From positions 21,674 to 85,673 of the forward strand of contig DASYEY010000083.1 of NCBI GenBank assembly GCA_036498725.1: a DNA stretch of 64,000 nucleotides, written 5' to 3'. Below are positions 10,054 to 63,915 of the stretch, in pieces (positions within the stretch are counted from its first letter, which is position 1; each line of letters starts with the position of its first letter). Origin of the DNA: Verrucomicrobiia bacterium. GTDB taxonomy: Bacteria; Verrucomicrobiota; Verrucomicrobiia; Limisphaerales; UBA11358. The notes beneath the pieces were generated by a model. The model searched no databases, was not told the origin of the DNA, and saw only the letters and a list, made by a program, of their open reading frames with translations. Both the position numbers and the translations under genes were made by a program.

Positions 10054-10059
10054 AAATCA

Positions 10060-10135
10060 TCCTCATTCTCATCGTCGTCCTCGTTCTTGATTCTCCCCCA
10101 GCCTGCGAGGACGAGGACGACGATGAGAATGAGGA
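10060..10135. repeat. Long hairpin: 24-25 bp perfect inverted repeat of a (GAN/TCN)-rich motif
   Basis: The left arm cctcattctcatcgtcgtcctcgt (10061-10084) is the reverse complement of acgaggacgacgatgagaatgagg (10111-10134), with a 26-nt loop. A related motif lies at 63651-63677. Confidence 0.85.
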
Positions 10136-10189
10136 CGACAGCCAAGGTCGAAAAATATGAATGAGCGCAACCTTCAAATACAATAGTGG

Positions 10190-10335
10190 TGGGTGGAATG
10201 GGTTGCGCTGCGACCCATTATGACGGCAACGCCGGCACTTTGTGGTGGGCTCTGATATTTGGACGCGCAACAACTCATCACCTGACGCTACGCTCGGTGA
10301 CGATTTTGGCCTCAGCGCAGCCAAAGCCACCGTTA
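10190..10335 (+). ncRNA. Candidate structured RNA / structured repeat, copy 1 of 3
   Basis: Hairpins are H1 10197-10219, H2 10222-10236, H3 10275-10303 and H4 10305-10325. The conserved blocks actttgtgg and gcgcagccaaagccacc are present. Stems covary with the copies at 58137-58282 (-) and 63431-63580 (+). Confidence 0.45.
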
Positions 10336-29628: not shown

Positions 29629-29884
29629 TTTTGAGGAGTGGCCTCGTCAGGTCCAGCACGTGAAATGAGGCAACTGGAAAGCGGCGGACTTAACCTTGCC
29701 GGGTTGAAGGTAATTTTCCAGAGCGCGGGAACCGGCGGCAAATGCTCTGATTTGGTGGGTTGACTATCCGTCGTTTACGCCAAAGCCTCAATCGTCTGAC
29801 CGGCGCTCCGTTGAGAATTTGTTCCGCGCGGATAAAACGAGCTGTCGCGAGCCGCCGCGCAACTGATTCCACCCAACCTCGTTA

Positions 29885-51773: not shown

Positions 51774-52403
51774 ATGACGAAGATCGCCATAGTCGAAGAC
51801 AACCCAGATATTCGCCAGTCCCTGACCGAATGGATCAATGCCGCTCCCGGCTATGAGTGCGTTTGTGCGTGCCCGAATTCAAAAACCGCCCTGGCACAAA
51901 TACCACGATTAAAACCGGATGTGGTGTTGATGGACATTCGCCTGCCAGACGAATCCGGCATAGTCTGCACCTCGCTCTTGAAGAGCCTGTTACCTGACTT
52001 GCAAGTGATTGTTCTAACCGTGTATCGGGATCGCGACTTGCTATTTCAGGCACTCAATGCCGGCGCTAGCGGCTATCTACTAAAGCGTTCCAAGCCAGCC
52101 GACGTGTTGAATGCCATTGCTGAAGTCCTGTCGGGCGGCGCCCCCATGACGGGGGAAATTGCGCGCATGGTCATCGAAACCTTCCACGGGCCGGCAACCA
52201 AGAGACAAGGAGAGCCGGGGCTTTCCGAACGCGAAAATGAAATCCTTCTTCTCGTATCAAAAGGGCTGGGCAACAAGGAGATTGGAATAAAATTAAACAT
52301 CAGTTATTACACCGTGCGCGCCCACTTACGTAAGATTTACGAGAAACTGCATGTCCACGGACGGAGCGAAGCTGTCGCCAGAGCGATTCAGGGCAACCGA
52401 TAG
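51774..52403 (+). CDS. NarL/LuxR-family response regulator (RR2), paralog of RR1
   Basis: It has 'DVVLMDIRLPDESG', 'ASGYLLKRSKP' and the HTH 'LSERENEILLLVSKGLGNKEIGIKLNISYYTVRAHLRKIYEKLHV'. It is divergent from HK2. Confidence 0.9.
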   Translation: MTKIAIVEDNPDIRQSLTEWINAAPGYECVCACPNSKTALAQIPRLKPDVVLMDIRLPDESGIVCTSLLKSLLPDLQVIVLTVYRDRDLLFQALNAGASGYLLKRSKPADVLNAIAEVLSGGAPMTGEIARMVIETFHGPATKRQGEPGLSERENEILLLVSKGLGNKEIGIKLNISYYTVRAHLRKIYEKLHVHGRSEAVARAIQGNR

Positions 52404-52964
52404 TCTTAAAGAGTTTCTTGGGCAACGCCGGCGATTTCGACGGAATCACCGCCGGGCCAATCGACTTAGCTCGCCGCCATCATTCCATTCGAGAGGACAT
52501 CAATAACGCCCCATCACAGCCGTTAAAATGGCACCGGCAAGCCACCGGAAGGATGTGCTGCCCTTTAATTTACAGCATCTGGGAGACAGTCCAATTGACC
52601 TATTGCCTTCACCCGAAGAAACGTTAGCTTAAACATAAGGATTTTTTATTTTAAAGAAATGGCGCTGTTCAGAGGCAACCTATCTATTTCGTTGTTATTC
52701 TCACGGCAAATGGAATACGGCTGGAAATTTCAACTAACCGCCAAGCTGAGTTTATGACTCACAAAAGCATGTGCGGGACAAGGTGCCGGCAGAAACATTC
52801 CGGCGGATAATTGATAAGGTTATTCATTCGAGGAAATACATGAAAAAAGCCAAAGCCAGTGCTTGCAGCGAGACTGCCGGCATTTTTTATTCGATCCCCC
52901 AAATGCAGTAAAACTGCCAATAAAGCCCGACCGTTTGATTAAGAACCCATTCCGTAACCATTAA

Positions 52965-55031
52965 ATGAATCCTGCTAAAATAATCGCCGGGTGTTTGCTG
53001 TTAAACGTGGCTTTAATGGAAGCATTTTCCGCCCAGCCAGTCTGGCTTGACAGCCTGAATATCTCCACCGCTACGCAAGGCTGGGGCGAGCCACATAAGA
53101 ACCAATCGGTTGAAGGACATACGCTTACGATTGGCGGCAAGCAGTTCAAGCGCGGGTTGGGCACGCACGCAGAAAGCATGCTGTATCTCGCACTCAATCG
53201 CGAGGCGCTGAATTTCGCGGCCAATGTCGGCATTGACGATGAAGTCGGCAGCCAGCCAGACGCCAGCGTGGAATTCTTCGTCATCGGCGATGGCAAAATT
53301 CTCTGGCAAAGCGGCGTCATGCATGCGGGAGAGCCATCCCGGCGTTGTACGGTGGATCTTACCGGTGTCAAAACCTTGCTCCTGAAAGTTGGCGAAGGTG
53401 GTAATGGCATAGCTTATGACCATGCGGATTGGGCGGATGCCGAAATAGAATCCAAAGGGGCGACGACATTTGTCGCCAGTGGCAGCGAAATTCTCGATCC
53501 CGTAGCTCCCTACATCCTGACCCCGCCTCCGCCATCGACCCCGCGAATCAATGGTGCCGATATTTTTGGTGTTCGGCCTGGCTCGCCGTTTTTATTCACC
53601 ATTCCGGCAACGGGCAAACGTCCCATGACTTTCTTCGCCGACGGACTGCAGGCGGGCTTGCATTTGGATGCCAAGACGGGTCGCATTACTGGCAAGTTGG
53701 AGAAAATGGGAAAATATGTCGTGACTTTGCGCGCGGAAAATGCGCTGGGAGTGGCCACAGAAAAATTTCGCATCATTTGCAGCAACCAGATTGCCTTGAC
53801 GCCGCCGATGGGGTGGAACAGTTGGAATTGTTTTGCCGGTGCCGTTTCGGAGGATAAGGTTAAAAGCGCGGCGGATGCCATGGTCAAGAGCGGCCTGATT
53901 AACCATGGCTGGACATATATCAACGTGGACGATTTCTGGCAAAATCAGCGCGATTCAAGCGACCCAACCCTGCGTGGTCCGTATCGCGACACCAGCGGTT
54001 TTATCATTCCGAACTCACGTTTTCCTGACATGAAAGGCCTGGCGGAGTACCTTCATTCACTTGGCTTGAAAGCGGGTTTGTATTCTTCGCCCGGACCCTG
54101 GACCTGTGGCGGATGCACCGGGAGCTGGAAGCACGAGCGACAGGATGCAGAGACTTATGCCAAGTGGGGATTTGATTATTTGAAGTATGACTGGTGCAGC
54201 TATTTCAATGTTGCCGACGGCCAGGATCCCGAAGGCAAAAACGTTCCCCATTGGGGCGAGACCAACAATGAAGCTGTAGTTGAGTATCCCTATGGCTTAA
54301 TGGGCAAATATCTTCGGGAACAACCACGAGATATTATTTACAGTCTGTGCGAATACGGGATGGCTGACGTGTGGAAATGGGGCGCTTCGGTCGGAGGCAA
54401 TTGTTGGCGGACCACCGATGATATTAATGAACGCTGGGGAGTGGCAACCCATGGCTGGAAAGATGGCGGTGCAGGCGGTGGTTTGGACGTTATTGGTTTC
54501 AATCAGGACCAGGCCGCTCCCTATGCCCAGCCAGGAAACTGGAATGATCCAGACATGCTGATCGTCGGGCAGGTTGGCTGGGGAAATCCACATCCCTCAC
54601 GTCTAAACCCTGATGAACAATATGCCCATATCAGCCTTTGGTGCCTGCTGTCGGCGCCATTGCTGATTGGTTGCGACATGGAAAAGCTGGACGCCTTCAC
54701 GCTAAACCTGTTGAACAACGATGAAGTTCTGGCCGTGGATCAAGACGTGCTGGGCGGGCAGGCAACCTGTGTAATTCATGATGGCGACTTGCGTGTTTAT
54801 GAAAAGAAACTGGAGGATGGCAGTCGTGCCGTGGGTTTCTTCAACGTGGGAACAGCAAAGTTGAGTTTAACTTTTCACGAATTTAAGGCGCTAAAATTAG
54901 CCGGCAATATTAACATCCGCGACTTGTGGCGACAAAAAAATGTTGCGATGGTAAACACAGCGAAGGATGGATTTTCGTTCACCATCTCTCCCCATGGGGT
55001 AATGTTGTATAAGCTGACGCCAGTGAGATGA
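52965..55031 (+). CDS. NPCBM-domain / GH27 alpha-galactosidase (or alpha-N-acetylgalactosaminidase)
   Basis: The NPCBM block is 'GWGEPHKNQSVEGHTLTIGGKQFKRGLGTHAES...YDHADWADAEI'. The GH27 blocks are 'TPPMGWNSWNCF', 'INVDDFW' and 'DYLKYDWC'. Confidence 0.85.
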   Translation: MNPAKIIAGCLLLNVALMEAFSAQPVWLDSLNISTATQGWGEPHKNQSVEGHTLTIGGKQFKRGLGTHAESMLYLALNREALNFAANVGIDDEVGSQPDASVEFFVIGDGKILWQSGVMHAGEPSRRCTVDLTGVKTLLLKVGEGGNGIAYDHADWADAEIESKGATTFVASGSEILDPVAPYILTPPPPSTPRINGADIFGVRPGSPFLFTIPATGKRPMTFFADGLQAGLHLDAKTGRITGKLEKMGKYVVTLRAENALGVATEKFRIICSNQIALTPPMGWNSWNCFAGAVSEDKVKSAADAMVKSGLINHGWTYINVDDFWQNQRDSSDPTLRGPYRDTSGFIIPNSRFPDMKGLAEYLHSLGLKAGLYSSPGPWTCGGCTGSWKHERQDAETYAKWGFDYLKYDWCSYFNVADGQDPEGKNVPHWGETNNEAVVEYPYGLMGKYLREQPRDIIYSLCEYGMADVWKWGASVGGNCWRTTDDINERWGVATHGWKDGGAGGGLDVIGFNQDQAAPYAQPGNWNDPDMLIVGQVGWGNPHPSRLNPDEQYAHISLWCLLSAPLLIGCDMEKLDAFTLNLLNNDEVLAVDQDVLGGQATCVIHDGDLRVYEKKLEDGSRAVGFFNVGTAKLSLTFHEFKALKLAGNINIRDLWRQKNVAMVNTAKDGFSFTISPHGVMLYKLTPVR

Positions 55032-55067
55032 ATCACCCATAATCCAAAAATTTGAATTTATGCACAC

Positions 55068-55330
55068 GGCAGCCTCGCGCCAGTAATAATTGAGCAGACC
55101 TCGAAGTCGCTTCCGCCGGCAAACGCCGCCGGCAAAGTTTTCTACAATCGAAAAGACCATTGTCTCCAGTTGGAGGATTGGGATTCTTAACGCTTGGAGA
55201 TTCCGTTCATGCTTGTAATGGGCGAAAAATCCTTCAACCGCCCTCCACGGCAACGCTTCTCGAAAAAAGTGCAATTGGCAACGGTGATTCGACCGGTTTT
55301 GAGCGACTTCCAAATCAGCTTGCCGCAAAC
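55068..55330 (-). pseudogene. 3'-terminal remnant of a DDE (rve-type) transposase/integrase
   Basis: 'FFAHYKHERNLQAL...RLRGLLNYYWREAA' matches the conserved C-terminal end of rve-family transposases ('...YNHERPHQAL...RLGGLLxYYxRxAA'). There is no catalytic domain upstream. The ORF 54897-55439 is a read-through chimera. Confidence 0.55.
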
Positions 55331-55445
55331 CTGAATTCGAGCATAATAATTTCCTGATTGGGTGGCGCATTAAATTCGTCACTGACAGGAAACGTGGATT
55401 GCAAAATGTGAAAACCAGCATTTTAAGCAATCGAATCAACTGGTT

Positions 55446-55535
55446 GGAAGGGTGGCTGAGTGGTTAAAGGCATCTGACTCGAAATCAGAAGTACGGGTAA
55501 CCGTACCGGAGGTTCGAATCCTCTCCCTTCCGCCA
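55446..55535 (+). tRNA. tRNA-Ser (anticodon CGA), CCA encoded
   Basis: The acceptor stem is ggaaggg/cccttcc. The anticodon stem-loop is tctga-ctCGAaa-tcaga. There is a long variable arm (gtacgggtaaccgtaccg) and a T arm ggaggttcgaatcctc. The discriminator is g, followed by cca. Confidence 0.9.
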
Positions 55536-55710
55536 TATTGATTTTAAACTTTACGCAATGCTACCTGCGCTGGTTTGATCGCGTTCTTGGCACTCACCGT
55601 TGATTCTCACCAGAATATTTCGCCAGTAAAGTCAATGGATCGTGGACGGCTAAAAATACACTGGCAGCCTTTAATATATTTTGTCATTGTCCTGCCGCAG
55701 GGAATCAAAA

Positions 55711-56652
55711 ATGTCCGGGACCAATGAATTTCTCATCCAGCATGGGCTGCCCATTTTATTCGGCATCGTTTTGCTCGAACAAATTGGCATCCCCATTCCC
55801 GCCGCCCCCTGGTTCCTGGCCGCCGGGGCCCTGGCTGCTGCCGGCCATTTCAACGCCGTCGCCGGGCTATTGCTGGCCACCCTCGCTTGCCTGATCGCCG
55901 ATACGGTTTGGTTTTATATCGGCAAATTCCATGGCGCACGGGTGCTCAGCCTGCTTTGCAAGTTTTCACTGGAACCGGATTCCTGCGTTCGTCGCACCGT
56001 CAATGTCTTCGAGCGTTACGGTTGGCGCGGTATTCTGATTGCAAAATTCATTCCCGGCATGAGTACCATCACCCCTCCGCTGGCCGGCATGAGCGGAACC
56101 AATGCCACGCGATTTTTATTTTTCGATGCCCTTGGTGCATTGCTTTACTGTGGGGTTTATCTCTCGCTCGGCTGGCTCTTCAGCGATCAGATCGCCCAAT
56201 TCGGGGCCGCCTTTACGCACATCGGAGGAAATATACTGCGGGCCGGTTTGATCGTGATCGCTATCTACATTATTTGGAAATACTGGCAACGCCAGCGACT
56301 TCTGCGCGAGCTGCGCATGGTTAAAATCGATGTGACCGAACTGCGTAAACTGATCGATGGCGAGCCCAAGCCCTGGATCCTGGACCTCCGTTCCCAGACC
56401 GAGCTCGAAAAAGATCCGGTAGTCATCCTTGGGGCCATTCATCTTGCGTTTGATGAAGTTGAAAAGCGTTGCCAGGAATTTCCCCGCGACTGCGAAATCA
56501 TCACCTACTGCGACTGTCCCAACGAAATCACCAGTGCCAAAACCGCCTTGCATCTCCGAAAACGTGGATTTGCCCATGTCCGTCCGCTGCTGGGAGGCTT
56601 CACTGCCTGGCGTACCGCCAATCATCCCCTCAGCAACTGGACCAAAAACTGA
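55711..56652 (+). CDS. DedA/VTT-family membrane protein fused to a C-terminal rhodanese domain
   Basis: The start is ATG 55711. 'HGLPILFGIVLLEQIGIPIPAAPWFLAAG' is DedA-like. The C-terminal 'ILDLRSQTE...IITYCDCPNEITSAKTALHLRKRGF.HVRPLLGGFTAW' is a rhodanese domain with an active-site Cys loop. Confidence 0.7.
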   Translation: MSGTNEFLIQHGLPILFGIVLLEQIGIPIPAAPWFLAAGALAAAGHFNAVAGLLLATLACLIADTVWFYIGKFHGARVLSLLCKFSLEPDSCVRRTVNVFERYGWRGILIAKFIPGMSTITPPLAGMSGTNATRFLFFDALGALLYCGVYLSLGWLFSDQIAQFGAAFTHIGGNILRAGLIVIAIYIIWKYWQRQRLLRELRMVKIDVTELRKLIDGEPKPWILDLRSQTELEKDPVVILGAIHLAFDEVEKRCQEFPRDCEIITYCDCPNEITSAKTALHLRKRGFAHVRPLLGGFTAWRTANHPLSNWTKN

Positions 56653-56680
56653 CTCCGCATTTATTTTTACCTCAAACACT

Positions 56681-58090
56681 ATGCTTACACCAACCCGCAA
56701 CTATTTCAAATTTGGATGGCTTCTTATCGGATTATTATTTCTAGTTCGCGCCCAAGGCGTGCATGCAGAAAATGATTCCTGGACCAACCAGGCGGTTCAG
56801 GAAGCCGACTGGCAAGCTCGCGGTTGCGTCAATGATGAGCGGGGACAATGGTTTCGGGCTGCGAAATTTGGCGCGTTCATTCATTTCGGCGTTTATTCAG
56901 AACTGGGAGGCTATTGGCAGGGCAAACTGTATGATCCAGCCGAACAGATTTTAGGGTTGGGCGACCATCATCTGGCCATTCCCTTGCCGCAGTATGATGC
57001 CGTCGCGGCCCAATTTAATCCCGCCAATTTTAATGCCCATGAATGGGTCCGGATGATCAAAGACGCCGGGCAAAAATATTTGATCATCACGACCAAACAC
57101 CATGATGGATTTTGCATGTATCCCACCAAAACTACGGATCATAACATCATGTCAAAAACTCCGTTTCGTCGCGATGTCATCCGGGAGCTTGCGGATGAAT
57201 GCGAAAAACAGGGGATCGTGTTTTGCGTTTATTATTCCATTGGCGATTGGTGTGCCGCCGATGTGATGTCGCGCCAGTACAAAACGTACCCGGCTTACAT
57301 GCGCGCGCAATTGAAGGAATTGCTGGATAATTATCATAATATAAAAATGATCTGGCTGGATAATTACTGGTACGTGGACAATCAGTGGACCAACGATGAG
57401 AGCCACGCCAGGGAGCTCTATGCTTATATTCATTCGCTCAACCCGAATGTATTGATCAACGATCGTTGCGGTCGCGGCGCCAGTTCGACGGACGGGGATT
57501 ATGCGACACCGGAAAACCAGTTGGCCGGATCGCGGCAAAACCGTTATTTCGAAGTGGTCATGACGGATACGGCTGATGACAACTGGGGCTGGGTCAAAGG
57601 CGCAACGAACTACCGCAATCCCGGCGATTTGATCCATAACTTGATTGATAGCACCAGCAAGGGCGGCAATTTTGTGCTCAATGTCGGCCCGACCGCCACC
57701 GGCGAATTTTCAACTGAACATCAAGCGATCTTAAAAGTCATGGGAAAATGGCTGGCCACCAATGGCGAGGCCATTTACGGCGCAGTGCCCGCCCCGGAAT
57801 GCCAGCCCAGTTCGCAAAATGGTGCGCAATACTATGCCACCAAGCAGGGTAAAAACATTTACCTCCACGTCACTTCGTGGCCGTCTGATGGCAACGATTT
57901 AACCCTCGGCATCAAACGTACTGATTTGGTAAAAATAGAATTGCTTGATCATTCTTTACCGACACCCCCATTCAGCCAGCAGATCATCGGAAATATCACT
58001 CAAATCAAAATCACCCGACCGGCCGTGATCGACCCTTACGCCACGATTATCAAATTGAGTTTTAAAAATACCGTAGCCGGTTCAAATTAA
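56681..58090 (+). CDS. GH29 alpha-L-fucosidase
   Basis: The start is ATG 56681, with a signal peptide. 'WFRAAKFGAFIHFGVYS' and 'AGQKYLIITTKHHDGFCMYPT' are GH29 signature blocks. Confidence 0.85.
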   Translation: MLTPTRNYFKFGWLLIGLLFLVRAQGVHAENDSWTNQAVQEADWQARGCVNDERGQWFRAAKFGAFIHFGVYSELGGYWQGKLYDPAEQILGLGDHHLAIPLPQYDAVAAQFNPANFNAHEWVRMIKDAGQKYLIITTKHHDGFCMYPTKTTDHNIMSKTPFRRDVIRELADECEKQGIVFCVYYSIGDWCAADVMSRQYKTYPAYMRAQLKELLDNYHNIKMIWLDNYWYVDNQWTNDESHARELYAYIHSLNPNVLINDRCGRGASSTDGDYATPENQLAGSRQNRYFEVVMTDTADDNWGWVKGATNYRNPGDLIHNLIDSTSKGGNFVLNVGPTATGEFSTEHQAILKVMGKWLATNGEAIYGAVPAPECQPSSQNGAQYYATKQGKNIYLHVTSWPSDGNDLTLGIKRTDLVKIELLDHSLPTPPFSQQIIGNITQIKITRPAVIDPYATIIKLSFKNTVAGSN

Positions 58091-58136
58091 GTTTAATGCT
58101 TAGGGCGTGTCGTCGAGATGCTTTTGACACATAGCC

Positions 58137-58282
58137 AATGGGTGGCTTTGGCTGCGCTGCGGCCAAAGTCGTGGCCGAGCGTAGCGTCAGGCGACGAAAA
58201 GAACACGTCCAGTAACTGACCACGCCACAAAGTGACTGCTGCGCAGTCATAATAGGCCGCGGCGCGACCTATTCCACCCATT
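58137..58282 (-). ncRNA. Candidate structured RNA / structured repeat, copy 2 of 3 (inverted orientation)
   Basis: It is closed by a 9-bp helix aatgggtgg/ccacccatt (58137-58145 with 58274-58282). H1 is 58251-58273 and H2 is 58234-58248. The core ggtggctttggctgcgctgcggccaaagtcgtggccgagcgtagcgtcaggcgacga lies at about 58141-58196. Confidence 0.45.
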
Positions 58283-58340
58283 CTAGAATTTGTCTTCAAA
58301 ATGGCATTCCATTGGCAACGAAAGGGATTTCTTGATACTA

Positions 58341-58475
58341 GCCCCACCTTTTAAGGTGGGTTTACATGATGGCTCAATAAAAAGTCCCGTAGGGACGGCA
58401 GAAAAATTCTTTCGTCCCCCTGGGACTTTCATTTTCTAGACGATAATTATCCCAGTGTTAAAACACTGGGCTATT
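58341..58475. repeat. Cluster of short GC hairpins (REP-like)
   Basis: The hairpins are cccacc-ttttaa-ggtggg, gtccc-gta-gggac, cgtcccc-ct-gggac and cccagtgtt-aa-aacactggg. The unit style is the same as at 12995-13140. Confidence 0.65.
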
Positions 58476-58778
58476 CTCAAAAAAATAGCTTAAAGACACG
58501 CCCTGGACCCTCCGTTCCGTTCTATCGAATTTAATTCTGCTAACGGTTCTTCAGAACCGCAGCCGTCGATTTTTTATTTCCTCTGCCAACTGGATCAACA
58601 GCGAATGTGGACTTGCTGTCATTCCAGTTTCAATTTCTCCCCGCCACCACGTCAGGAACAGACACGAACCGGAAACAAATGAGGAGCGGGCTGGAATTTT
58701 TCTGATTTTGTTCCATTGTGAAGCGAGAGACATACTTCGTCTGCAAAGTTGCCGGTTAAACAACCAAAGAAATATTTT

Positions 58779-59786
58779 ATGAATTATGTAAAGTTGGGAA
58801 ATACGGGCCTCCAAGTATCGCGCGTTTGCCTGGGCTGCATGAGCTATGGCCAGACCAAAGTGACTCCCTGGCCCGGCATGCTCAATTGGGCCTGGACCTT
58901 AAATGAAGCGGATAGCCGTCCATTCATCAAACGTGCTTTGGAATTAGGCGTGAATTTCTTCGATACCGCCAATGTCTATTCCATTGGCGAAAGCGAAGCC
59001 GTCTTGGGGCGCGCCATCCGCGATTTTGCCCGCCGTGATGAGCTCGTTATCGCCACCAAGGTCAATGGTGCAGTTCGACCGGATGTCAATGGTCGCGGTC
59101 TGTCACGCAAAGCGATTTTGACGGAAGTTGACCAGAGCTTGAAACGACTGGGCACGGACTACATTGATCTCTACATCATTCATCGGTTCGATTATCAAAC
59201 TCCGCTCGAAGAAACTTTGGAAGCCCTCAACGATGTCGTCCGGTCCGGCAAAGCGCGTTATCTCGGAGCCTCGTCAATGTATGCCTGGCAAATGATGAAG
59301 GCCCTCGGCATTCAGCGGGCAAATCGGTGGGCGCCCTTTGTCTCCATGCAAAATTATTACAATCTGCTCTATCGCGAGGAAGAACGTGAAATGCTGCGTT
59401 TATGTCTGGCGGAAGGCATCGGAGTGACTCCCTGGTCACCGCTGGCGCGTGGCCGTCTGGCCCGCCCGTGGACTGACGAACCACCCACCGAACGCGCCAA
59501 GACTGATAATTTCGCCAAGACGTTGTACACCAAAACGACCGACATTGATAAGCCGGTCGTTGATCGCGTCAATGAGATCGCGCAAAAACGAGGATTGCCA
59601 CCCTCGCAAATCGCGCTGGCGTGGTTGCTGCACAAGCCGGTGGTCACTTCACCGATTGTGGGCGCAACCAAACCGCATCATCTCGAAGATGCGGTCGCAG
59701 CGCTTTCCATCAAACTTTCGGAAACAGAAATCAAACAACTGGAAGAACTGTATCAACCACATCCAGCGACCGAGGCATTCTCTTGA
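58779..59786 (+). CDS. Aldo/keto reductase
   Basis: 'MNYVKLGNTGLQVSRVCLGCMSYG', 'FFDTANVYS.GESE' and 'IDLYIIHRFD' are present. Confidence 0.9.
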   Translation: MNYVKLGNTGLQVSRVCLGCMSYGQTKVTPWPGMLNWAWTLNEADSRPFIKRALELGVNFFDTANVYSIGESEAVLGRAIRDFARRDELVIATKVNGAVRPDVNGRGLSRKAILTEVDQSLKRLGTDYIDLYIIHRFDYQTPLEETLEALNDVVRSGKARYLGASSMYAWQMMKALGIQRANRWAPFVSMQNYYNLLYREEEREMLRLCLAEGIGVTPWSPLARGRLARPWTDEPPTERAKTDNFAKTLYTKTTDIDKPVVDRVNEIAQKRGLPPSQIALAWLLHKPVVTSPIVGATKPHHLEDAVAALSIKLSETEIKQLEELYQPHPATEAFS

Positions 59787-61241
59787 TTGCCCAGCATGAC
59801 TGATAAACCTGAGGTAAAGACCGATATCGCAAGCGACGCCGCAAAACGTCTCTTGCCCTGGCTTGTGGCCGTCGCCTTCTTCATGGAATCGCTCGATACG
59901 ACGATTCTGAATACAGCAGTACCGACAATCGCCCAGGCGCTCGGCGTCACGCCGCTGAACATGAAGGCGGTCCTTTCCAGCTATACCTTGAGTTTGGCCG
60001 TGTTCATTCCGATCAGCGGTTGGATGGCAGATCGTTTTGGTACCCGCCGGGTATTCTCCTCAGCCATTGGTCTCTTCACCTTGGGATCATTTCTCAGCGG
60101 CATCTCAAGCAATATTCATGTATTGGTTGCCTGTCGGATTTTACAGGGTGCGGGCGGGGCGATGATGGTGCCCGTGGGGCGCATGACTTTGGTGCGCACT
60201 TTTCCCAAGACCGAACTCATCCGCACCATGAGCTTCGTTGCCATGCCCGCCCTGATCGGCCCCATGCTCGGCCCCATCGCCGGGGGATTGATCGTGGGTT
60301 ATTTTCATTGGCGCGCCATTTTCTTCCTCAACCTGCCTATTGGTTTGATTGGCTTATTCATGGTCTATCGACATTTGCCGGATTATCGTGAAGCCCAATC
60401 CAAGCCGCTTGATCTCGCCGGCCTGATTCTATTCGGCATTGGCATTGGCTTGCTGGCGTATGTGTTGGAAATCTTTGGCGAACATACTTTAAGCGCCCAG
60501 GACTTGCTGATTCTACTGGCCATTTCCGCCGCGTGTCTGACGGGTTATGGACTGCGCGCAACCCGCATCCAATTTCCCCTGCTCCGATTGCCACTCTTTC
60601 GCATTCGCACCTTTCGCGCCTCCGTCAGTGGCAATTTCCTGACCCGGCTTGGCATCGGCGGGATTCCCTTTCTCTTTCCCCTGCTATACCAAGTCGGCTT
60701 CGGATTCACGCCCATCCAATCTGGCTTGCTCATGATGCCGCAAGCCCTCGCCGCCATGAGCTTAAAATTGGCGACACCAAAAATATTAAAGCGCTTTGGT
60801 TATCGGCGGGTGTTGATCTCCAACACAATCGTTCTGGGCTTGCTGATCGCCTCCTTTGCGACCATCGGACCCAACACTCCGGTTTGGGTCATTGTCTCCC
60901 AGGTGTTTATCTTCGGGTTTTTCACGTCATTGCAATATACCAGTATGAACACTTTGGTTTATGCGGATGTCGCTGCGGAACAAACCAGCAGTGCCGGCAC
61001 CATCACGAGCACAGTGCAACAGATGTCCATCAGTTTCGGCATCGCGACGGCATCACTGATCACGGCGTTTTTTATTCCTGATCACCTTCACACCAGTGCA
61101 CCCGCCATGATTCAAGGGGTTCACAAAACGTTTTTGGTTTTGGGCGGATTGACGATTCTTTCCACCCTGATTTTTCGTGAATTAAAAGACGACGACGGCG
61201 ACACAGTGAGCCTGCATAAATCGCTTCAACACGCCGGATAA
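59787..61241 (+). CDS. MFS transporter, DHA2 (EmrB/QacA-like, 14-TMS) family
   Basis: 'FMESLDTTILNTAVPTIAQALG' and 'GWMADRFGTRRVF' are present, with about 14 hydrophobic segments. The start is TTG 59787 or ATG 59796. Confidence 0.85.
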   Translation: MPSMTDKPEVKTDIASDAAKRLLPWLVAVAFFMESLDTTILNTAVPTIAQALGVTPLNMKAVLSSYTLSLAVFIPISGWMADRFGTRRVFSSAIGLFTLGSFLSGISSNIHVLVACRILQGAGGAMMVPVGRMTLVRTFPKTELIRTMSFVAMPALIGPMLGPIAGGLIVGYFHWRAIFFLNLPIGLIGLFMVYRHLPDYREAQSKPLDLAGLILFGIGIGLLAYVLEIFGEHTLSAQDLLILLAISAACLTGYGLRATRIQFPLLRLPLFRIRTFRASVSGNFLTRLGIGGIPFLFPLLYQVGFGFTPIQSGLLMMPQALAAMSLKLATPKILKRFGYRRVLISNTIVLGLLIASFATIGPNTPVWVIVSQVFIFGFFTSLQYTSMNTLVYADVAAEQTSSAGTITSTVQQMSISFGIATASLITAFFIPDHLHTSAPAMIQGVHKTFLVLGGLTILSTLIFRELKDDDGDTVSLHKSLQHAG

Positions 61242-61242
61242 A

Positions 61243-61803
61243 TCAATGCCGGGCTTTTGCTGCCATCAATTCCAGCTCGGGATTTTCGAGATTCAATAGC
61301 TGGCGCTTCCGTTCCAGCCCACCAGCAAAACCATGCAAGCCACCGTTTTTCCCCACGACCCGATGACAGGGAATGATGATGGAAATGGGATTGCGCCCGG
61401 TGCTGGTCCCGGCAGCGCGGATGGCCTCAGGCTGGCCGGCTTGTTGAGCCAGATCGCTGTAACTGACAGTTTTTCCGTAAGGTATGACCGCAATATTTTT
61501 CCAGACGGCTGTTTGAAAATCCGTGCCAATCGGGCTGAGCGGCAATGAGAAAATTTTCCGGCGGCCCGCAAAATATTCCTGCAATTGTTTCCTGGCCGAT
61601 TGCAAAATGGGATGTTCCGCCTTCGGTTCCCATTGTTTGCTTGCGGCTGGCAAATGTTTGCAGCCGACAAAATAAACTCCCTTTAACGCCGCCGCATCGG
61701 CCACCAACATCAGGTCGCCCACCGGACTCGGTACAATCACATAATAATTTTCCCTTCTCGCTCCATCGGTCCGGGCCGGTTTCGTCTTCAATTTTGCTTT
61801 CAT
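61243..61803 (-). CDS. ogt: Methylated-DNA--protein-cysteine methyltransferase
   Basis: The active site is 'IIIPCHRVVGKNGGLHGFAGG'. The start is ATG 61803; the ORF track extends to 61923. Confidence 0.9.
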   Translation of the reverse strand: MKAKLKTKPARTDGARRENYYVIVPSPVGDLMLVADAAALKGVYFVGCKHLPAASKQWEPKAEHPILQSARKQLQEYFAGRRKIFSLPLSPIGTDFQTAVWKNIAVIPYGKTVSYSDLAQQAGQPEAIRAAGTSTGRNPISIIIPCHRVVGKNGGLHGFAGGLERKRQLLNLENPELELMAAKARH

Positions 61804-61834
61804 GTTTCCACCATAGCTGGAATCAAAAAGATTG

Positions 61835-61888
61835 CTGGCCATTTTCGGACATGAAGACAAAATCATTTTGATGTCCGAAAATGGCCAG
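61835..61888. promoter_or_regulatory. 54-bp palindrome in the ogt / adaA-alkA divergent promoter
   Basis: The perfect 18-bp arms are ctggccattttcggacat (61835-61852) and atgtccgaaaatggccag (61871-61888). The spacer itself contains caaaat-c-attttg. Confidence 0.6.
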
Positions 61889-61921
61889 ATGCTGCCAGCA
61901 TAAAGGGTTACAAAATCCATC

Positions 61922-63400
61922 ATGCAACTCGATCCAAAAATCCTTTACCAAGCGCTGCTCGCGCGGGACACGCGTTTTGACGGCACCTTTTTTACCGGGG
62001 TTACTTCCACCGGCATTTATTGCCGGCCGATCTGCCCGGTAAAACCGCCCAAGCTCGTAAACTGCCGGTTTTATGAACACGCTCCGGAAGCTGAATCGGC
62101 GGGATTTCGTCCCTGCCTCCGATGCCGCCCCGAACTGGCGCCGGGCAATGCTCCCGTGGATAATTCCAAACGGATCGCTCATCGGATTGTCCAACGCATT
62201 GAAGCCGGCAATCTCGAAGAAAAGGCGGCGCTGGAAGCGGTTGCCGACGAATTCAAATTAAGTTCGCGGCAAATCCGGCGCATCATTCAAAAAGAATTAG
62301 GCGTGGCGCCGATCCGGTTATTGCTCACCCGCCGGTTGTTATTGGCCAAGCAATTATTGACCGAAACAAAATTGCCGGTCATCGAGATCGCCTTTGCCAG
62401 CGGCTTCGCCAGTTTGCGCCGCTTTAACGATGCGTTCAACCGGCGCTATGGCATGCCGCCTACCCGCTTGCGCCGCTCCGCCGCCGCGAACGACGGGCCA
62501 ATGGCCAGCACGGATACCATCACCCTGCAACTGGCGTATCGTCCGCCGTACGATTGGCCGGGCGTGCTGGCTTTTCTCAAGACGCGCGAATTGAAAGGCG
62601 TTGAGTGGGTGACGGAACATTTTTATGCCCGCACAGTGCAGCTTGGCGAGCAGCGGGGTTGGATCAAAGTCACGCTGGCACCAAAGAAAAATGCGTTACT
62701 ATTGGAATTCACGCATAATTTGATCGCCGGTTTGCCAGCACTGTTACGACGGGTGCGGGATTTGTTTGATCTGGACGCACGACCAGACGTCATCGCCAAA
62801 CATTTCGAGCATGACCAACATCTGGCTTCGATCATCAAAGCCAATCCCGGACTGCGCGTACCTGGTGCCTTCCATGGCTTTGAACTCGGATTGCGCGCCA
62901 TCCTCGGCCAGCAGATCACCGTGAAAGCGGCCACAACCATCGCCGGGCGGATGGCAACCGCTTTTGGTGAACCGATCACCACGCCCTATCCAGAACTCAA
63001 CCGACTGACACCGTCGGCCGGGCGCATTGCAAAAGCCAGCGTGGATAGTGTGGCCAAGCTGGGTATCGTGAAGGCCCGTTGCCAAAGTTTGATCGCATTG
63101 GCCAAAGCACAAAAATCCGGAGAAGCATCGCTGGACGATGACACCCATTCCGATCCCGAAGAGATTATTCGACACCTGGTGACTTTGCCCGGTATCGGTC
63201 AGTGGACCGCGCATTATATTGCCATGCGAGCCTTGCGCTGGCCGGATGCTTTCCCCAAGGAGGACATTATCGTGCGCCGGGAGCTTGGTGGCGTTACGGC
63301 CAAACAAGCCGAAGAGTTGGCGAAAGACTGGCGTCCATGGCGAAGTTATGCGGTGCTGCACCTTTGGCGAAAAGCTAAACAATCATCAGCCGCTTTTTAG
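61922..63400 (+). CDS. Bifunctional Ada-N (Zn methylphosphotriester sensor)/AraC-HTH regulator fused to AlkA DNA-3-methyladenine glycosylase II
   Basis: 'RDTRFDGTFFTGVTSTGIYCRPICP' and 'GFRPCLRCRP' form the Ada Zn-binding part. 'IAFASGFASLRRFNDAFNRRYGMPP' is the AraC HTH. The C-terminal HhH-GPD part includes 'LPGIGQWTAHYIAMRAL..PDAFP..D'. Confidence 0.85.
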   Translation: MQLDPKILYQALLARDTRFDGTFFTGVTSTGIYCRPICPVKPPKLVNCRFYEHAPEAESAGFRPCLRCRPELAPGNAPVDNSKRIAHRIVQRIEAGNLEEKAALEAVADEFKLSSRQIRRIIQKELGVAPIRLLLTRRLLLAKQLLTETKLPVIEIAFASGFASLRRFNDAFNRRYGMPPTRLRRSAAANDGPMASTDTITLQLAYRPPYDWPGVLAFLKTRELKGVEWVTEHFYARTVQLGEQRGWIKVTLAPKKNALLLEFTHNLIAGLPALLRRVRDLFDLDARPDVIAKHFEHDQHLASIIKANPGLRVPGAFHGFELGLRAILGQQITVKAATTIAGRMATAFGEPITTPYPELNRLTPSAGRIAKASVDSVAKLGIVKARCQSLIALAKAQKSGEASLDDDTHSDPEEIIRHLVTLPGIGQWTAHYIAMRALRWPDAFPKEDIIVRRELGGVTAKQAEELAKDWRPWRSYAVLHLWRKAKQSSAAF

Positions 63401-63430
63401 CGTTTGATCATGGCATTGGCACATAGCTGC

Positions 63431-63580
63431 CATGGGTGAAATCGGTCGCGCTGCGACTGATTTTGCCTGTGCCACAGGCACTTGGTGGCATGCTTTTGTA
63501 GTGGGGCGCTCTATTTCGTCGCCTGGCGCTGCGCTCGGCGACGACTTTGGCCGCAGCGCAGCCAAAGCCACCAACTGGGC
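63431..63580 (+). ncRNA. Candidate structured RNA / structured repeat, copy 3 of 3
   Basis: Hairpins are H1 63438-63462, H2 63464-63478, H3 63515-63543 (perfect 8-bp stem) and H4 63545-63565. The blocks acttggtgg and gcgcagccaaagccacc are present. Confidence 0.45.
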
Positions 63581-63625
63581 CAAGGTGGCTGTGTTTTGCC
63601 ATGGTTATTTAGAACTTGTCCGAAA

Positions 63626-63705
63626 AGAAATCAGCGGCGATTTCTGCTCTTCCTCATCGTCATCATCGTCGTCCTCGAAAAATCTTCTATAACTCGAGGA
63701 GGATG
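63626..63705. repeat. Two hairpins, the second built on the same (TCN)-rich motif as 10061-10084
   Basis: The first is gaaatc-agcggc-gatttc (63626-63643). The second has cctcatcgtcatcatcgtcgtcctcga (63651-63677) pairing imperfectly with tcgaggaggatga (63693-63705). Confidence 0.6.
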
Positions 63706-63735
63706 ACCAAGGAGGCGCATCAAATTGTTTCCCCC

Positions 63736-63915
63736 TAGAGCGGTTCAAGAAATACTGTAGCCATTCGGGAAGAAAAGAACAGCTGCGGTCTTTTTGGGTT
63801 TTGGCGTCGTTTCGGCTCCGTCACAGGTTTTTTCAAACCTGCTCCTTCGCCGAAGCCTCGCCAAAACCCAAAAATCTTCGCTCCGAACGGCCACAGTATT
63901 TCTTGAACCGCTCTA
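63736..63915. mobile_element. ~180-bp extended palindrome / MITE-like element
   Basis: The outer arms tagagcggttcaagaaatactgt (63736-63758) and acagtatttcttgaaccgctcta (63893-63915) are perfect. Inner arms tttttgggttttggcg / cgccaaaacccaaaaa pair, as do the central caggttt / aaacctg. No ORF is present. Confidence 0.5.

What the first reader, a model, noticed from the sequence alone, without database searches (positions are those of the whole stretch)
58137..58282. Structured element copy 2: inverted orientation, best closing helix, flanked by REP-like hairpins
This copy is on the opposite strand relative to its neighbours (GH29 and AKR are both on +). That argues against a cis-regulatory leader role. 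It has a perfect 9-bp terminal helix (aatgggtgg/ccacccatt) enclosing all four hairpins, as expected for an autonomous RNA or a mobile unit with terminal inverted repeats.

An 84-codon ORF (58093-58347, minus) spans it in one frame. So does a comparable ORF in copy 3. Copy 1 needs a frameshift to keep that frame.
Basis: seen in the sequence. Interest (0 to 1): 0.65.

Follow-up and report, generated by a model that had tools for sequence, protein, structure and literature searches.

The report
Palindromic intergenic repeat, not a gene
The flagged 146 bases are one copy of a non-coding, hairpin-rich repeat scattered between genes of an uncultured Verrucomicrobiae bacterium; it is most likely a small parasitic mobile DNA of the REPIN/MITE type, so it is a new family of an ordinary kind, not a small protein gene or a known RNA.

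Summary
Window 58137-58282 is a real, inverted copy of a ~143-nt element. The window also has copies at 10189-10333 and 63432-63574. I found 10 more full copies, one truncated copy and one two-hairpin mini version in metagenome contigs. Eight full copies come from the same Verrucomicrobiae MAG.

A 5-bp closing helix (GGTGG/CCACC) encloses four hairpins. This fold is kept in 13 copies that are only 59-91% identical: 94.6% of cells pair and 14 pairs show compensatory double changes.

The 84-codon ORF is spurious:
- length variants shift the frame;
- there is no third-position excess;
- pN/pS is 0.57-0.87, no different from the other frames;
- similarity stops at the element boundary.

The two end hairpins are inverted copies of one REP-like palindrome (GGYYGC-GCT-GCGRCC). 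They give 28-nt imperfect terminal inverted repeats. G.T and A.C mismatches are balanced overall and mirror-symmetric between the ends. Both strands fold equally well. Copies lie at non-orthologous intergenic sites in either orientation. Rfam, plasmid, phage, viral and literature searches found nothing.

Best reading: a non-autonomous REPIN/MITE-like repeat. The mobilising enzyme was not found, and no target-site duplication was seen. An RNA-level role is not excluded.

The parts
58139..58281 (-). Copy 2 of the ~143-nt repeat core. The finding gave 58137-58282.
   Evidence: CM R1 scores 158.8 bits, E=1.8e-41. 87-91% identical to L039 and L041 copies from the same MAG.
58274..58278 (-). 5' arm of the closing helix P1 (GGTGG on the element strand). 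In copy 2 alone the helix extends to 9 bp (58274-58282).
   Evidence: GGTGG/CCACC is nearly invariant in 13 copies; the extension is not conserved.
58251..58273 (-). Hairpin H1 (10-bp stem, 3-nt loop). This is the left REP-like palindrome and part of the left terminal inverted repeat.
   Evidence: (I9) and 92: 5 of 10 pairs show double changes; one pair takes 5 pair types.
58233..58249 (-). Hairpin H2 (7-bp stem, 3-nt loop).
   Evidence: (I5) and 92: 3 of 7 pairs show double changes.
58198..58234 (-). Conserved unpaired junction CACTTTGTGG (58225-58234) followed by the variable, indel-prone centre.
   Evidence: all gap columns lie here; unpaired-column diversity is 0.37 against 0.15 in stems.
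58169..58197 (-). Hairpin H3 (TCGTCGCC ... GGCGACGA with inner mini-hairpin). This is the most sequence-invariant module of the family.
   Evidence: almost unchanged even in copies 59-70% identical overall. Its translation 'SPDAALGD' anchors all spurious ORF hits.
58146..58168 (-). Hairpin H4 (10-bp stem with one C.A, 3-nt loop). This is the right REP-like palindrome, an inverted copy of H1.
   Evidence: (I13, I1), 64, 78 and 92: 4 pairs show double changes.
58141..58145 (-). 3' arm of the closing helix P1 (CCACC on the element strand).
58116..58312 (-). Possible extended element: about 25-30 nt on each side of the core, weakly similar to the flanks of other copies and partly self-complementary (ATGCcaTTTTGA / TCAAAAGCAT).
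   Evidence: I17. This is weak. The RNAalifold consensus does not extend beyond the core. Exact inverted matches in the flanks exceed chance only in L044 and L048.
58093..58347 (-). 84-codon ORF spanning copy 2, judged spurious.
10189..10333 (+). Copy 1 (145 nt), lying between divergent genes.
63432..63574 (+). Copy 3, starting 32 nt after the stop codon of the Ada/AlkA gene.
56681..58090 (+). GH29 alpha-L-fucosidase gene. Its stop codon lies 48 nt from the 3' end of copy 2 (convergent arrangement).
58343..58473 (.). Non-repeated hairpins between copy 2 and the AKR gene, including terminator-like stems on both strands (58384-58396 minus, 58414-58426 plus).

Best explanation
Copy 2 belongs to a family of non-coding, non-autonomous palindromic repeats of the REPIN/MITE type in Verrucomicrobiota.

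Architecture. Two inverted copies of one REP-like palindrome, GG(Y)(Y)GC-GCT-GCG(R)CC, form hairpins H1 and H4. Each is capped by half of a 5-bp GGTGG/CCACC complement, and together they make the ends. Between them is a spacer of about 85 nt carrying hairpin H2, a variable stretch and the nearly invariant hairpin H3.

Shown:
- the element is repeated;
- its hairpins are maintained by compensatory substitutions;
- it does not code for protein;
- its ends are inverted repeats;
- copies lie at unrelated intergenic sites in both orientations.

Inferred: the family spreads or spread by transposition in trans. The enzyme would recognise the end hairpins and probably H3. By analogy with REPINs this would be an HUH/Y1 (RAYT-like) transposase acting on single-stranded DNA; alternatively a DDE transposase binding the inverted repeats.

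Copy 2 itself. It sits 48 nt after the GH29 stop codon and before the nearest plus-strand terminator-like hairpin (58414-58426). It is therefore probably carried passively, in antisense orientation, in the GH29 3' untranslated region. Any effect there on mRNA stability or termination would be a by-product.
For: Repetition and divergence. I found 13 full copies, one truncated copy (L041:6124-6239) and one two-hairpin mini copy (L058:14-66). Eight full copies are in one MAG; their neighbouring genes carry NCBI accessions HEY44155xx-HEY44164xx, Verrucomicrobiae bacterium. These form at least two subfamilies, 87-91% and 84-87% identical within and 77-82% between.

Non-orthologous sites. The flanking genes differ at every copy. 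The SASA-esterase homologue has the element upstream in the window but downstream in L036. Relatives of the GH29 gene at 71-74% identity have neither synteny nor the element.

Inverted-repeat ends. The arms 58137-58164 and 58255-58282 are 28 nt and 79% complementary. The arms match at 17-22 of 29 positions in 11 copies. The end motif occurs 6 times in the window, always paired on opposite strands, against 0.08 expected.

Structure. 94.6% of 556 cells pair, against 28-48% when the partner columns are slid. Fourteen pairs and 41 cells have double changes, reached by 0 of 500 shuffles (MAFFT-based version).

DNA-like symmetry. G.T and A.C cells are balanced at 19 to 17 overall. H1 has 13:1 and H3+H4 have 4:15. 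The T.G in H1 is the mirror image of the C.A in H4. Both strands fold equally well as DNA, -41.2 and -41.1 kcal/mol.

Orientation. Eight copies are co-oriented with the upstream gene, four are antisense between co-directional genes, and one lies between divergent genes.

Assembly breaks. Contigs tend to break near copies.
Against: No transposase of any kind was found. None appears among 27 window ORFs scanned with Pfam or among the called genes of the other loci from this MAG.

No target-site duplication stands out above chance. No clean filled-site versus empty-site pair was obtained, so mobility is inferred rather than shown.

Conservation is very uneven. H3, the junction CACTTTG and P1 are almost invariant across copies that are otherwise 59-70% identical. 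This implies selection on sequence. It fits a protein-binding site on a mobile element, but it equally fits a functional RNA.

REP-superfamily tags are absent. There is no GTAG, and the CGTC lies in H3, whose loop is too long (PMC3733652).

The family is rare in public data. An exact 19-mer scan of 185,579 species genomes gave only chance hits, and a 27-mer scan of the metagenome collection found 2.
Confidence: 0.65

Rival explanations
1. The element is a multi-copy structured non-coding RNA, for example a 3'-UTR stabiliser or terminator module, or a trans-acting small-RNA family. Its four-hairpin fold and invariant H3 loop would then be selected at the RNA level.
For: Covariation is strong in H1, H2 and H4. 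Unpaired or loop sequences (CACTTTGTGG, the H3 loop) are conserved across divergent Verrucomicrobiota copies. Most copies lie within 0-200 nt of a gene's 3' end, and 8 of 13 are co-oriented with the upstream gene. RNA folding z-scores are about -5.
Against: Wobble pairs show no strand asymmetry: 19 G.T against 17 A.C. The bias has opposite signs in H1 and in H3/H4, so neither strand gives a clean RNA. Four of 13 copies are antisense to both neighbours and one lies in a divergent promoter region. No conserved promoter or intrinsic terminator is present. The L043 copy lies downstream of a canonical terminator. A truncated copy and a centre-less mini copy exist. Positions are not orthologous. Rfam has no match even at E<=10.
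Confidence: 0.22
2. The 84-codon ORF (58093-58347, minus strand) and its counterparts encode a small conserved protein (MGGIGRAA...SSPDATLGDDFGRSAAKAT).
For: The reading frame is open across the core in 4 of 11 copies (c2, c3, L039, L040). Gene callers annotate such ORFs as hypothetical proteins. The peptide motif SPDAALGD.GRSA recurs in 21 representative proteins of 1.84 billion.
Against: Core lengths are 141-146 nt, and 4 of 5 length variants shift the frame. L036 has no start codon and an internal frame change, L037 has an in-frame stop, and copy 1 reads its 3' half in another frame. Diversity by codon position is 0.34/0.245/0.30 and 0.142/0.075/0.125, so there is no third-position excess. 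pN/pS is 0.87 and 0.57 in the proposed frame against 0.75-1.7 in the other frames. The predicted proteins start at different points and their tails are unrelated beyond the element boundary. In L048 and L058 the H4 stem is rewritten by compensatory changes that alter the peptide (DDFGRSAAKAT becomes DGQGRRATLAT). There is no Pfam hit and no Shine-Dalgarno-like sequence before the ATG.
Confidence: 0.03
3. The element is a site-specific recombination or structural DNA site, such as an attC-like folded site or a nucleoid or gyrase binding site, and is neither a transposable unit nor an RNA.
For: The structure is symmetric on both strands. The invariant H3 and P1 suggest a sequence-specific DNA-binding partner. 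The element sits at the 3' ends of genes.
Against: There is no cassette array and no integrase: neighbours are ordinary housekeeping and glycan-degradation genes spaced 5-48 kb apart. Copies within one genome are highly similar in sequence, with subfamilies, as expected of amplification. A truncated copy and a mini copy exist.
Confidence: 0.08

Closest known systems
REPINs (REP doublets forming hairpins; Bertels & Rainey 2011, PMC3116915) and REP 'HH dimers' with structured spacers (Di Nocera et al. 2013, PMC3733652)
   Same: Both have two short palindromic units in inverted orientation around a spacer. The whole is predicted to fold as a hairpin in ssDNA or mRNA. Both are extragenic, multi-copy, non-coding, and show compensatory maintenance of stems. 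In the window the unit is always a doublet, never a singlet. Spacers that themselves carry stem-loops are described for Agrobacterium CGTC-3 dimers (PMC3733652).
   Different: No RAYT gene was found. There is no GTAG tag or terminal CGTC tag. The spacer is long (about 85 nt) and contains the most conserved module of the element (H3), whereas in REPINs the REP units are the conserved part. The host phylum is Verrucomicrobiota; GTAG REPs are reported from Opitutus terrae, but not this sequence.
Bacterial MITEs (Correia/NEMIS, ERIC, RUP, Nezha), as defined in PMC3733652: 70-300 bp, 15-30 bp terminal inverted repeats, no coding capacity
   Same: Size is 143 nt for the core. It has 28-nt imperfect terminal inverted repeats, no coding capacity, dispersed intergenic copies in both orientations, and a stable fold in transcripts.
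   Different: No target-site duplication was detected and no parent insertion sequence with the same ends is known. Each inverted repeat is itself a palindrome, which is unusual for the ends of DDE-type insertion sequences.
Rickettsia palindromic elements (RPEs), and REPs that are annotated as or inserted into ORFs (PMC3733652)
   Same: These are palindromic repeats that stay open in one or more reading frames and get annotated as short proteins. In L037 and L040 a TAA just 5' of the core serves as the stop codon of the upstream gene.
   Different: No copy was seen inside a conserved protein-coding region. The reading frame is not preserved among copies.
Rfam structured RNA families (4227 models)
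   Same: It is a multi-hairpin fold with covariation, of a size typical of small structured RNAs.
   Different: No model matches copy 2, even at E<=10. Genomic behaviour is that of a repeat, not of a single-copy RNA gene.

Membership tests
MITE | Length 70-300 bp | tested here: met
   Core is 141-146 nt in 13 copies.
MITE | Terminal inverted repeats of about 15-30 bp | tested here: met
   Arms are 28 nt and 79% complementary in copy 2, and match at 17-22 of 29 positions in 11 copies.
MITE | No coding capacity | tested here: met
   Frame-shifting indels, no third-position excess, and pN/pS of 0.57-0.87 not distinct from other frames.
MITE | Target-site duplication flanking each copy | tested here: not met
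   The longest direct repeats between 70-nt flanks are 5-8 nt, within the shuffle range, and show no common length or position. The true outer boundary is uncertain, so this is a weak negative.
MITE | A parent insertion sequence or transposase sharing the same ends | not testable with these tools
   No transposase domain among 27 window ORFs. The complete MAG could not be scanned.
REPIN | Two REP-like palindromes in inverted orientation that together form a hairpin | tested here: met
   GGYYGCGCTGCGRCC occurs 6 times in the window, as one plus-strand and one minus-strand site per element, against 0.08 expected. The closing helix and fold are conserved. A mini doublet without the centre is at L058:14-66.
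REPIN | Doublets predominate over singlets | tested here: met
   No singlet in 64 kb. The sample is small.
REPIN | A cognate RAYT (REP-associated Y1/HUH transposase) gene flanked by the REPs | not testable with these tools
   None was seen in the roughly 180 kb held. Whole-genome access is needed.
GTAG- or CGTC-tagged REP superfamilies (PMC3733652) | Terminal GTAG or CGTC tetranucleotide on a stem-loop with an 8-9 bp stem and a 4-5 nt loop (CGTC), or a 5-13 bp stem (GTAG) | tested here: not met
   H1 and H4 carry neither tag. CGTC occurs at the 5' end of H3, but the H3 loop is 13 nt.
Small protein gene | One reading frame conserved, with synonymous-biased substitution | tested here: not met
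Known structured RNA (Rfam 15) | Score at or above a family's gathering threshold | tested here: not met
   The only hit in the window is a tRNA at 55446-55532. Nothing overlaps the element at E<=10.

The most novel reading that the evidence does not exclude
The element may be more than selfish DNA. Its nearly invariant H3 hairpin (CGTCGCC-TGACGCTGCGCTC-GGCGACG), the CACTTTG junction and the GGTGG/CCACC clamp persist across Verrucomicrobiota lineages, while every other stem has been rewritten by compensatory changes. These conserved parts could mark an undescribed functional nucleic-acid module. That module could be a structured RNA class, or the recognition site of a recombinase or transposase type not yet linked to repeats in this phylum.
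Probability: 0.15. Interest if true: 0.6.

Novelty: new member of a known kind. Interest (0 to 1): 0.3.

Why it matters
Annotation: gene callers have already turned several copies into 'hypothetical proteins' (P0001-P0008 and about 40 related ORFs in public protein sets). Recognising the family removes these false genes.

Assembly: metagenome contigs appear to break near copies.

Biology: the family adds a defined repeat, with a covariance model, for a poorly studied and largely uncultured phylum. It could serve as a strain-typing marker. It also gives an entry point for finding the enzyme that mobilises it. The contrast between an invariant H3 and freely covarying H1, H2 and H4 makes a testable prediction about which part is read by sequence and which by shape.

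Tried and rejected
- Rfam at gathering thresholds on the whole window, and at E<=10 on 57900-58700: nothing on the element.
- Exact 19-mer scan of 185,579 species genomes: 35 loci, all chance matches to the 19-mer alone, none a full element by nhmmer.
- 27-mer scan of the metagenome collection: only 2 loci.
- Scan of viral contigs for the H3 motif: 0.
- Distant blastn against plasmids and phages: no match.
- Literature search for the sequence, the peptide motif, and Verrucomicrobia MITEs: nothing specific.
- Empty-site search through GH29 homologues: the nearest relatives are only 71-74% identical and not syntenic, so no filled-versus-empty comparison was possible.
- Synteny between L036 and the window: only one shared gene.
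- Outer helices beyond the core: suggestive by eye in several copies, but not recovered by RNAalifold and not above chance in most copies.
- Target-site duplications: none.
- Considered from memory and set aside:
  - integron attC sites (no cassette array, no integrase);
  - IS200/IS605 ends or omega/reRNA (their end hairpins are direct, not inverted, and no TnpA/TnpB is nearby);
  - retron ncRNA (no reverse transcriptase);
  - self-cleaving ribozymes (no Rfam signal).
- A sigma-70-like -35/-10 pair just 5' of copy 2 (58307 to 58280): it is not conserved in other copies.

Full report
1. WHAT IS AT THE COORDINATES

A perfect 9-bp complement, aatgggtgg (58137-58145) with ccacccatt (58274-58282), encloses a GC-rich stretch.

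The stretch folds far better than dinucleotide shuffles. As RNA the z-scores are -5.06 on the minus strand and -4.74 on the plus strand. As DNA they are -5.77 and -5.74, with energies of -41.2 and -41.1 kcal/mol.

blastn of the region against the window finds two more copies, both in the opposite orientation, at 10190-10331 and 63432-63578, about 78-80% identical.

The neighbours of copy 2 are both on the plus strand. They are a GH29 alpha-L-fucosidase ending at 58090 and an aldo/keto reductase. The 84-codon ORF at 58093-58347 on the minus strand exists. Rfam has no match to the element at gathering thresholds or at E<=10.

2. MORE COPIES

An exact 19-mer from the most conserved part found only chance hits in one genome per species for 185,579 species. 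A 27-mer found two real copies in JGI metagenomes, L036 and L037.

The gene caller had turned copy 3 into an 86-aa 'hypothetical protein'. I therefore searched the protein collections with a profile of the translated element. That search returned seven further short ORFs. Their contigs gave copies L039, L040, L041, L042, L043 and L044.

A profile search of 1.84 billion representative proteins found only 21 such ORFs. A third search with the divergent ones gave two distant copies, L048 and L058.

The total is 13 full copies, one truncated copy (L041:6124-6239, the 3' half only) and one mini copy (L058:14-66). The mini copy consists of an H1-like hairpin, 4 nt, an H4-like hairpin and CCACC.

The window is identical to JGI contig Ga0376653_0001010 over 51922-63840. 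Its GH29 protein is identical to one from an NCBI 'MAG TPA: Verrucomicrobiae bacterium' on a 91-kb contig. Genes next to L041, L043 and L044 carry accessions from what appears to be the same MAG (HEY44155xx-HEY44164xx). Eight full copies therefore come from one genome. Relatives of the L058 contig are named Verrucomicrobiota.

3. STRUCTURE

RNAalifold on a MAFFT alignment of 11 copies gives the following elements:
- a closing helix P1 (GGTGG/CCACC);
- H1, with 10 bp and a 3-nt loop;
- H2, with 7 bp;
- a conserved unpaired CACTTTGTGG;
- a variable centre that holds all the indels;
- H3, with 8+4 bp;
- H4, with 10 bp including one C.A.

On that alignment 93.2% of cells pair, against 28-50% when the partner columns are slid. 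Eight pairs show changes on both sides, and no shuffle of 500 reaches the observed covariation.

With the two divergent copies added, 94.6% of 556 cells pair. Fourteen pairs and 41 cells have double changes, again with 0 of 500 shuffles. This alignment was made by the covariance model and so leans somewhat towards the structure.

In L048 and L058, which are only 59-70% identical to the window copies, the outer stems of H1, H2 and H4 are rewritten pair by pair. P1, the inner GC core of H1 and H4, the junction and the whole of H3 stay the same.

The 9-bp helix of copy 2 is therefore 5 conserved base pairs plus 4 private ones.

4. NOT A PROTEIN

The frame that starts at ATGGGTGG is open across the core in c2, c3, L039 and L040 only.
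- Copy 1 changes frame half-way through.
- L036 has no start codon and an internal 2-nt deletion.
- L037 has an in-frame stop.
- Core lengths are 141, 142, 143, 145 and 146 nt, so four of the five length variants are frame-shifting.

Diversity by codon position is 0.34/0.245/0.30 in the 5' block and 0.142/0.075/0.125 in the 3' block, so there is no third-position excess. Summed Nei-Gojobori pN/pS is 0.87 and 0.57 in the proposed frame, against 0.75-1.72 in the other two frames.

The predicted proteins start at different internal points. Some begin in another frame, and all have unrelated tails beyond the element. No Pfam family matches.

5. DNA-LEVEL SYMMETRY

H1 and H4 are inverted copies of one palindrome. 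The pattern GGYYGCGCTGCGRCC, allowing one mismatch, occurs exactly six times in 64 kb against 0.08 expected. It always appears as one plus-strand and one minus-strand site per element.

Together with P1 these sites give 28-nt arms that are 79% complementary in copy 2. The arms match at 17-22 of 29 positions in 11 copies.

Non-Watson-Crick cells are balanced overall, with 19 G.T against 17 A.C, but the bias has opposite signs at the two ends. H1 has 13 G.T and 1 A.C. H3 and H4 together have 4 G.T and 15 A.C. The frequent T.G at H1 columns 16/24 is the mirror image of the C.A at H4 columns 124/132.

An RNA selected on one strand should show G.U and avoid A.C throughout. A unit whose two ends are read in mirror fashion on opposite strands shows what is seen here.

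6. GENOMIC BEHAVIOUR

All copies are intergenic.
- Eight are co-oriented with the gene upstream: c3, L036, L037, L039, L040, L041, L043 and L044.
- Four lie antisense between co-directional genes: c2, L042, L048 and L058.
- Copy 1 lies between divergent genes.

Most copies are within 0-200 nt of a stop codon. In L037 and L040 a TAA just 5' of the core is the stop codon of the upstream gene, and in L058 the 3' end abuts a convergent gene's stop codon. The L043 copy lies after a canonical terminator.

The flanking genes differ at every copy. The one shared gene, a SASA-type esterase at 74% identity, has the element upstream in the window and downstream in L036. GH29 relatives at 71-74% identity lack both synteny and the element.

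Within the MAG there are at least two subfamilies: {c2, L039, L041} at 87-91% and {c3, L042, L043, L044} at 84-87%.

No transposase domain was found among 27 window ORFs. No target-site duplication exceeds chance.

7. INTERPRETATION

The anatomy and behaviour match the published definitions of REPINs (PMC3116915) and bacterial MITEs (PMC3733652). The features that match are:
- inverted REP-like palindromes at the ends;
- a spacer with its own stem-loops;
- many diverged copies at unrelated intergenic sites in both orientations;
- truncated and mini forms;
- no coding capacity.

I therefore read copy 2 as a non-autonomous palindromic repeat. It most likely spread through a trans-acting enzyme that recognises the end hairpins and probably the invariant H3. 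Mobility, the enzyme and the strand used are inferences; none was shown.

Copy 2 lies between the GH29 stop codon (58090) and the first plus-strand terminator-like hairpin (58414-58426). It is probably transcribed passively, in antisense orientation, as part of the GH29 3' UTR.

The main rival is a functional structured RNA. It keeps about 0.2 probability because of the strongly uneven conservation and the covariation. The protein reading is essentially excluded.

8. COMPARISON AND NOVELTY

The element fails the tag criteria of the GTAG and CGTC REP superfamilies. It lacks a detectable RAYT or parent insertion sequence in the sequence available, so I do not file it as a proven REPIN or MITE. 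It does work like one on every feature I could test.

It is absent from Rfam, from plasmid, phage and viral collections, and from the searchable literature. It is therefore a new family of a known kind, of modest interest.

The one unusual aspect is that the spacer hairpin H3, not the terminal palindromes, is the most conserved part.

Noticed in passing
window 10057-10138; window ~63640-63710; L041:6210-6291; L044:9846-9891: A second repeat family: long imperfect palindromes built of GAN/NTC triplet-like runs (tcctcatcgtcgtcctcg ... cgaggacgacgatgag). They are often found within about 50-70 nt of a copy of the 143-nt element, and one abuts the truncated copy in L041.
   Followed up: partly
window 63736-63915: An imperfect palindrome of about 180 nt (arms about 70% identical) lies just downstream of copy 3. 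The JGI contig Ga0376653_0001010 ends at window 63840, in the middle of it.
   Followed up: no
window 58328-58484: Nested hairpins between copy 2 and the AKR gene, with terminator-like stems on both strands (GTCCCTACGGGAC and GTCCCCCTGGGAC). There are weak sub-threshold Rfam hits to Acido-Lenti-1 (E=0.014 and 0.18). The hairpins are not repeated elsewhere in the sequence held.
   Followed up: partly
window 29850-29875: A 21-25 nt fragment resembling the left end of the element (...CGCGCAACTGATTCCACCCA) lies in an intergenic region. It may be a decayed remnant or a chance match (nhmmer E=0.11).
   Followed up: partly
6-12 nt 5' of the core in all 11 copies first collected; L037:3679-3681 and L040:2655-2657: A TAA or TAG is always present just 5' of the core. 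In L037 and L040 it is the actual stop codon of the upstream gene, which suggests insertion at or into gene 3' ends.
   Followed up: partly
L058:14-66: A mini version of the element: an H1-like hairpin and an H4-like hairpin separated by 4 nt and followed by CCACC, with no H2, centre or H3. It lies at the very start of a contig and overlaps a called (cut) gene.
   Followed up: partly
L048:9862-9912 and 10102-10165: The divergent L048 copy is nested inside further inverted repeats (18 nt at 83% and 31 nt at 74%, TAATCTTAAT-type). The motif TAGGGC..GTTTTCAAA 5' of the core is shared with L041 and L039 from the window's MAG.
   Followed up: partly
P0135 and P0136 (proteins): Two longer predicted proteins contain three tandem units of about 46-49 aa, each beginning GGGRSRAATSFACGAGTLWRG. 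This is a translation resembling the H1-H2 half of the element. It hints at tandem arrays of a related repeat in other organisms; the DNA could not be fetched.
   Followed up: no
window 55446-55532: A tRNA gene (Rfam RF00005, 59.7 bits) lies between the alpha-galactosidase gene and the VTT/rhodanese gene.
   Followed up: no
L045:12289-13584: A DDE_Tnp_1/DUF772 transposase gene lies directly downstream of the GH29 homologue in a distant relative. It is unrelated to the element, and the covariance model finds no copy there.
   Followed up: partly
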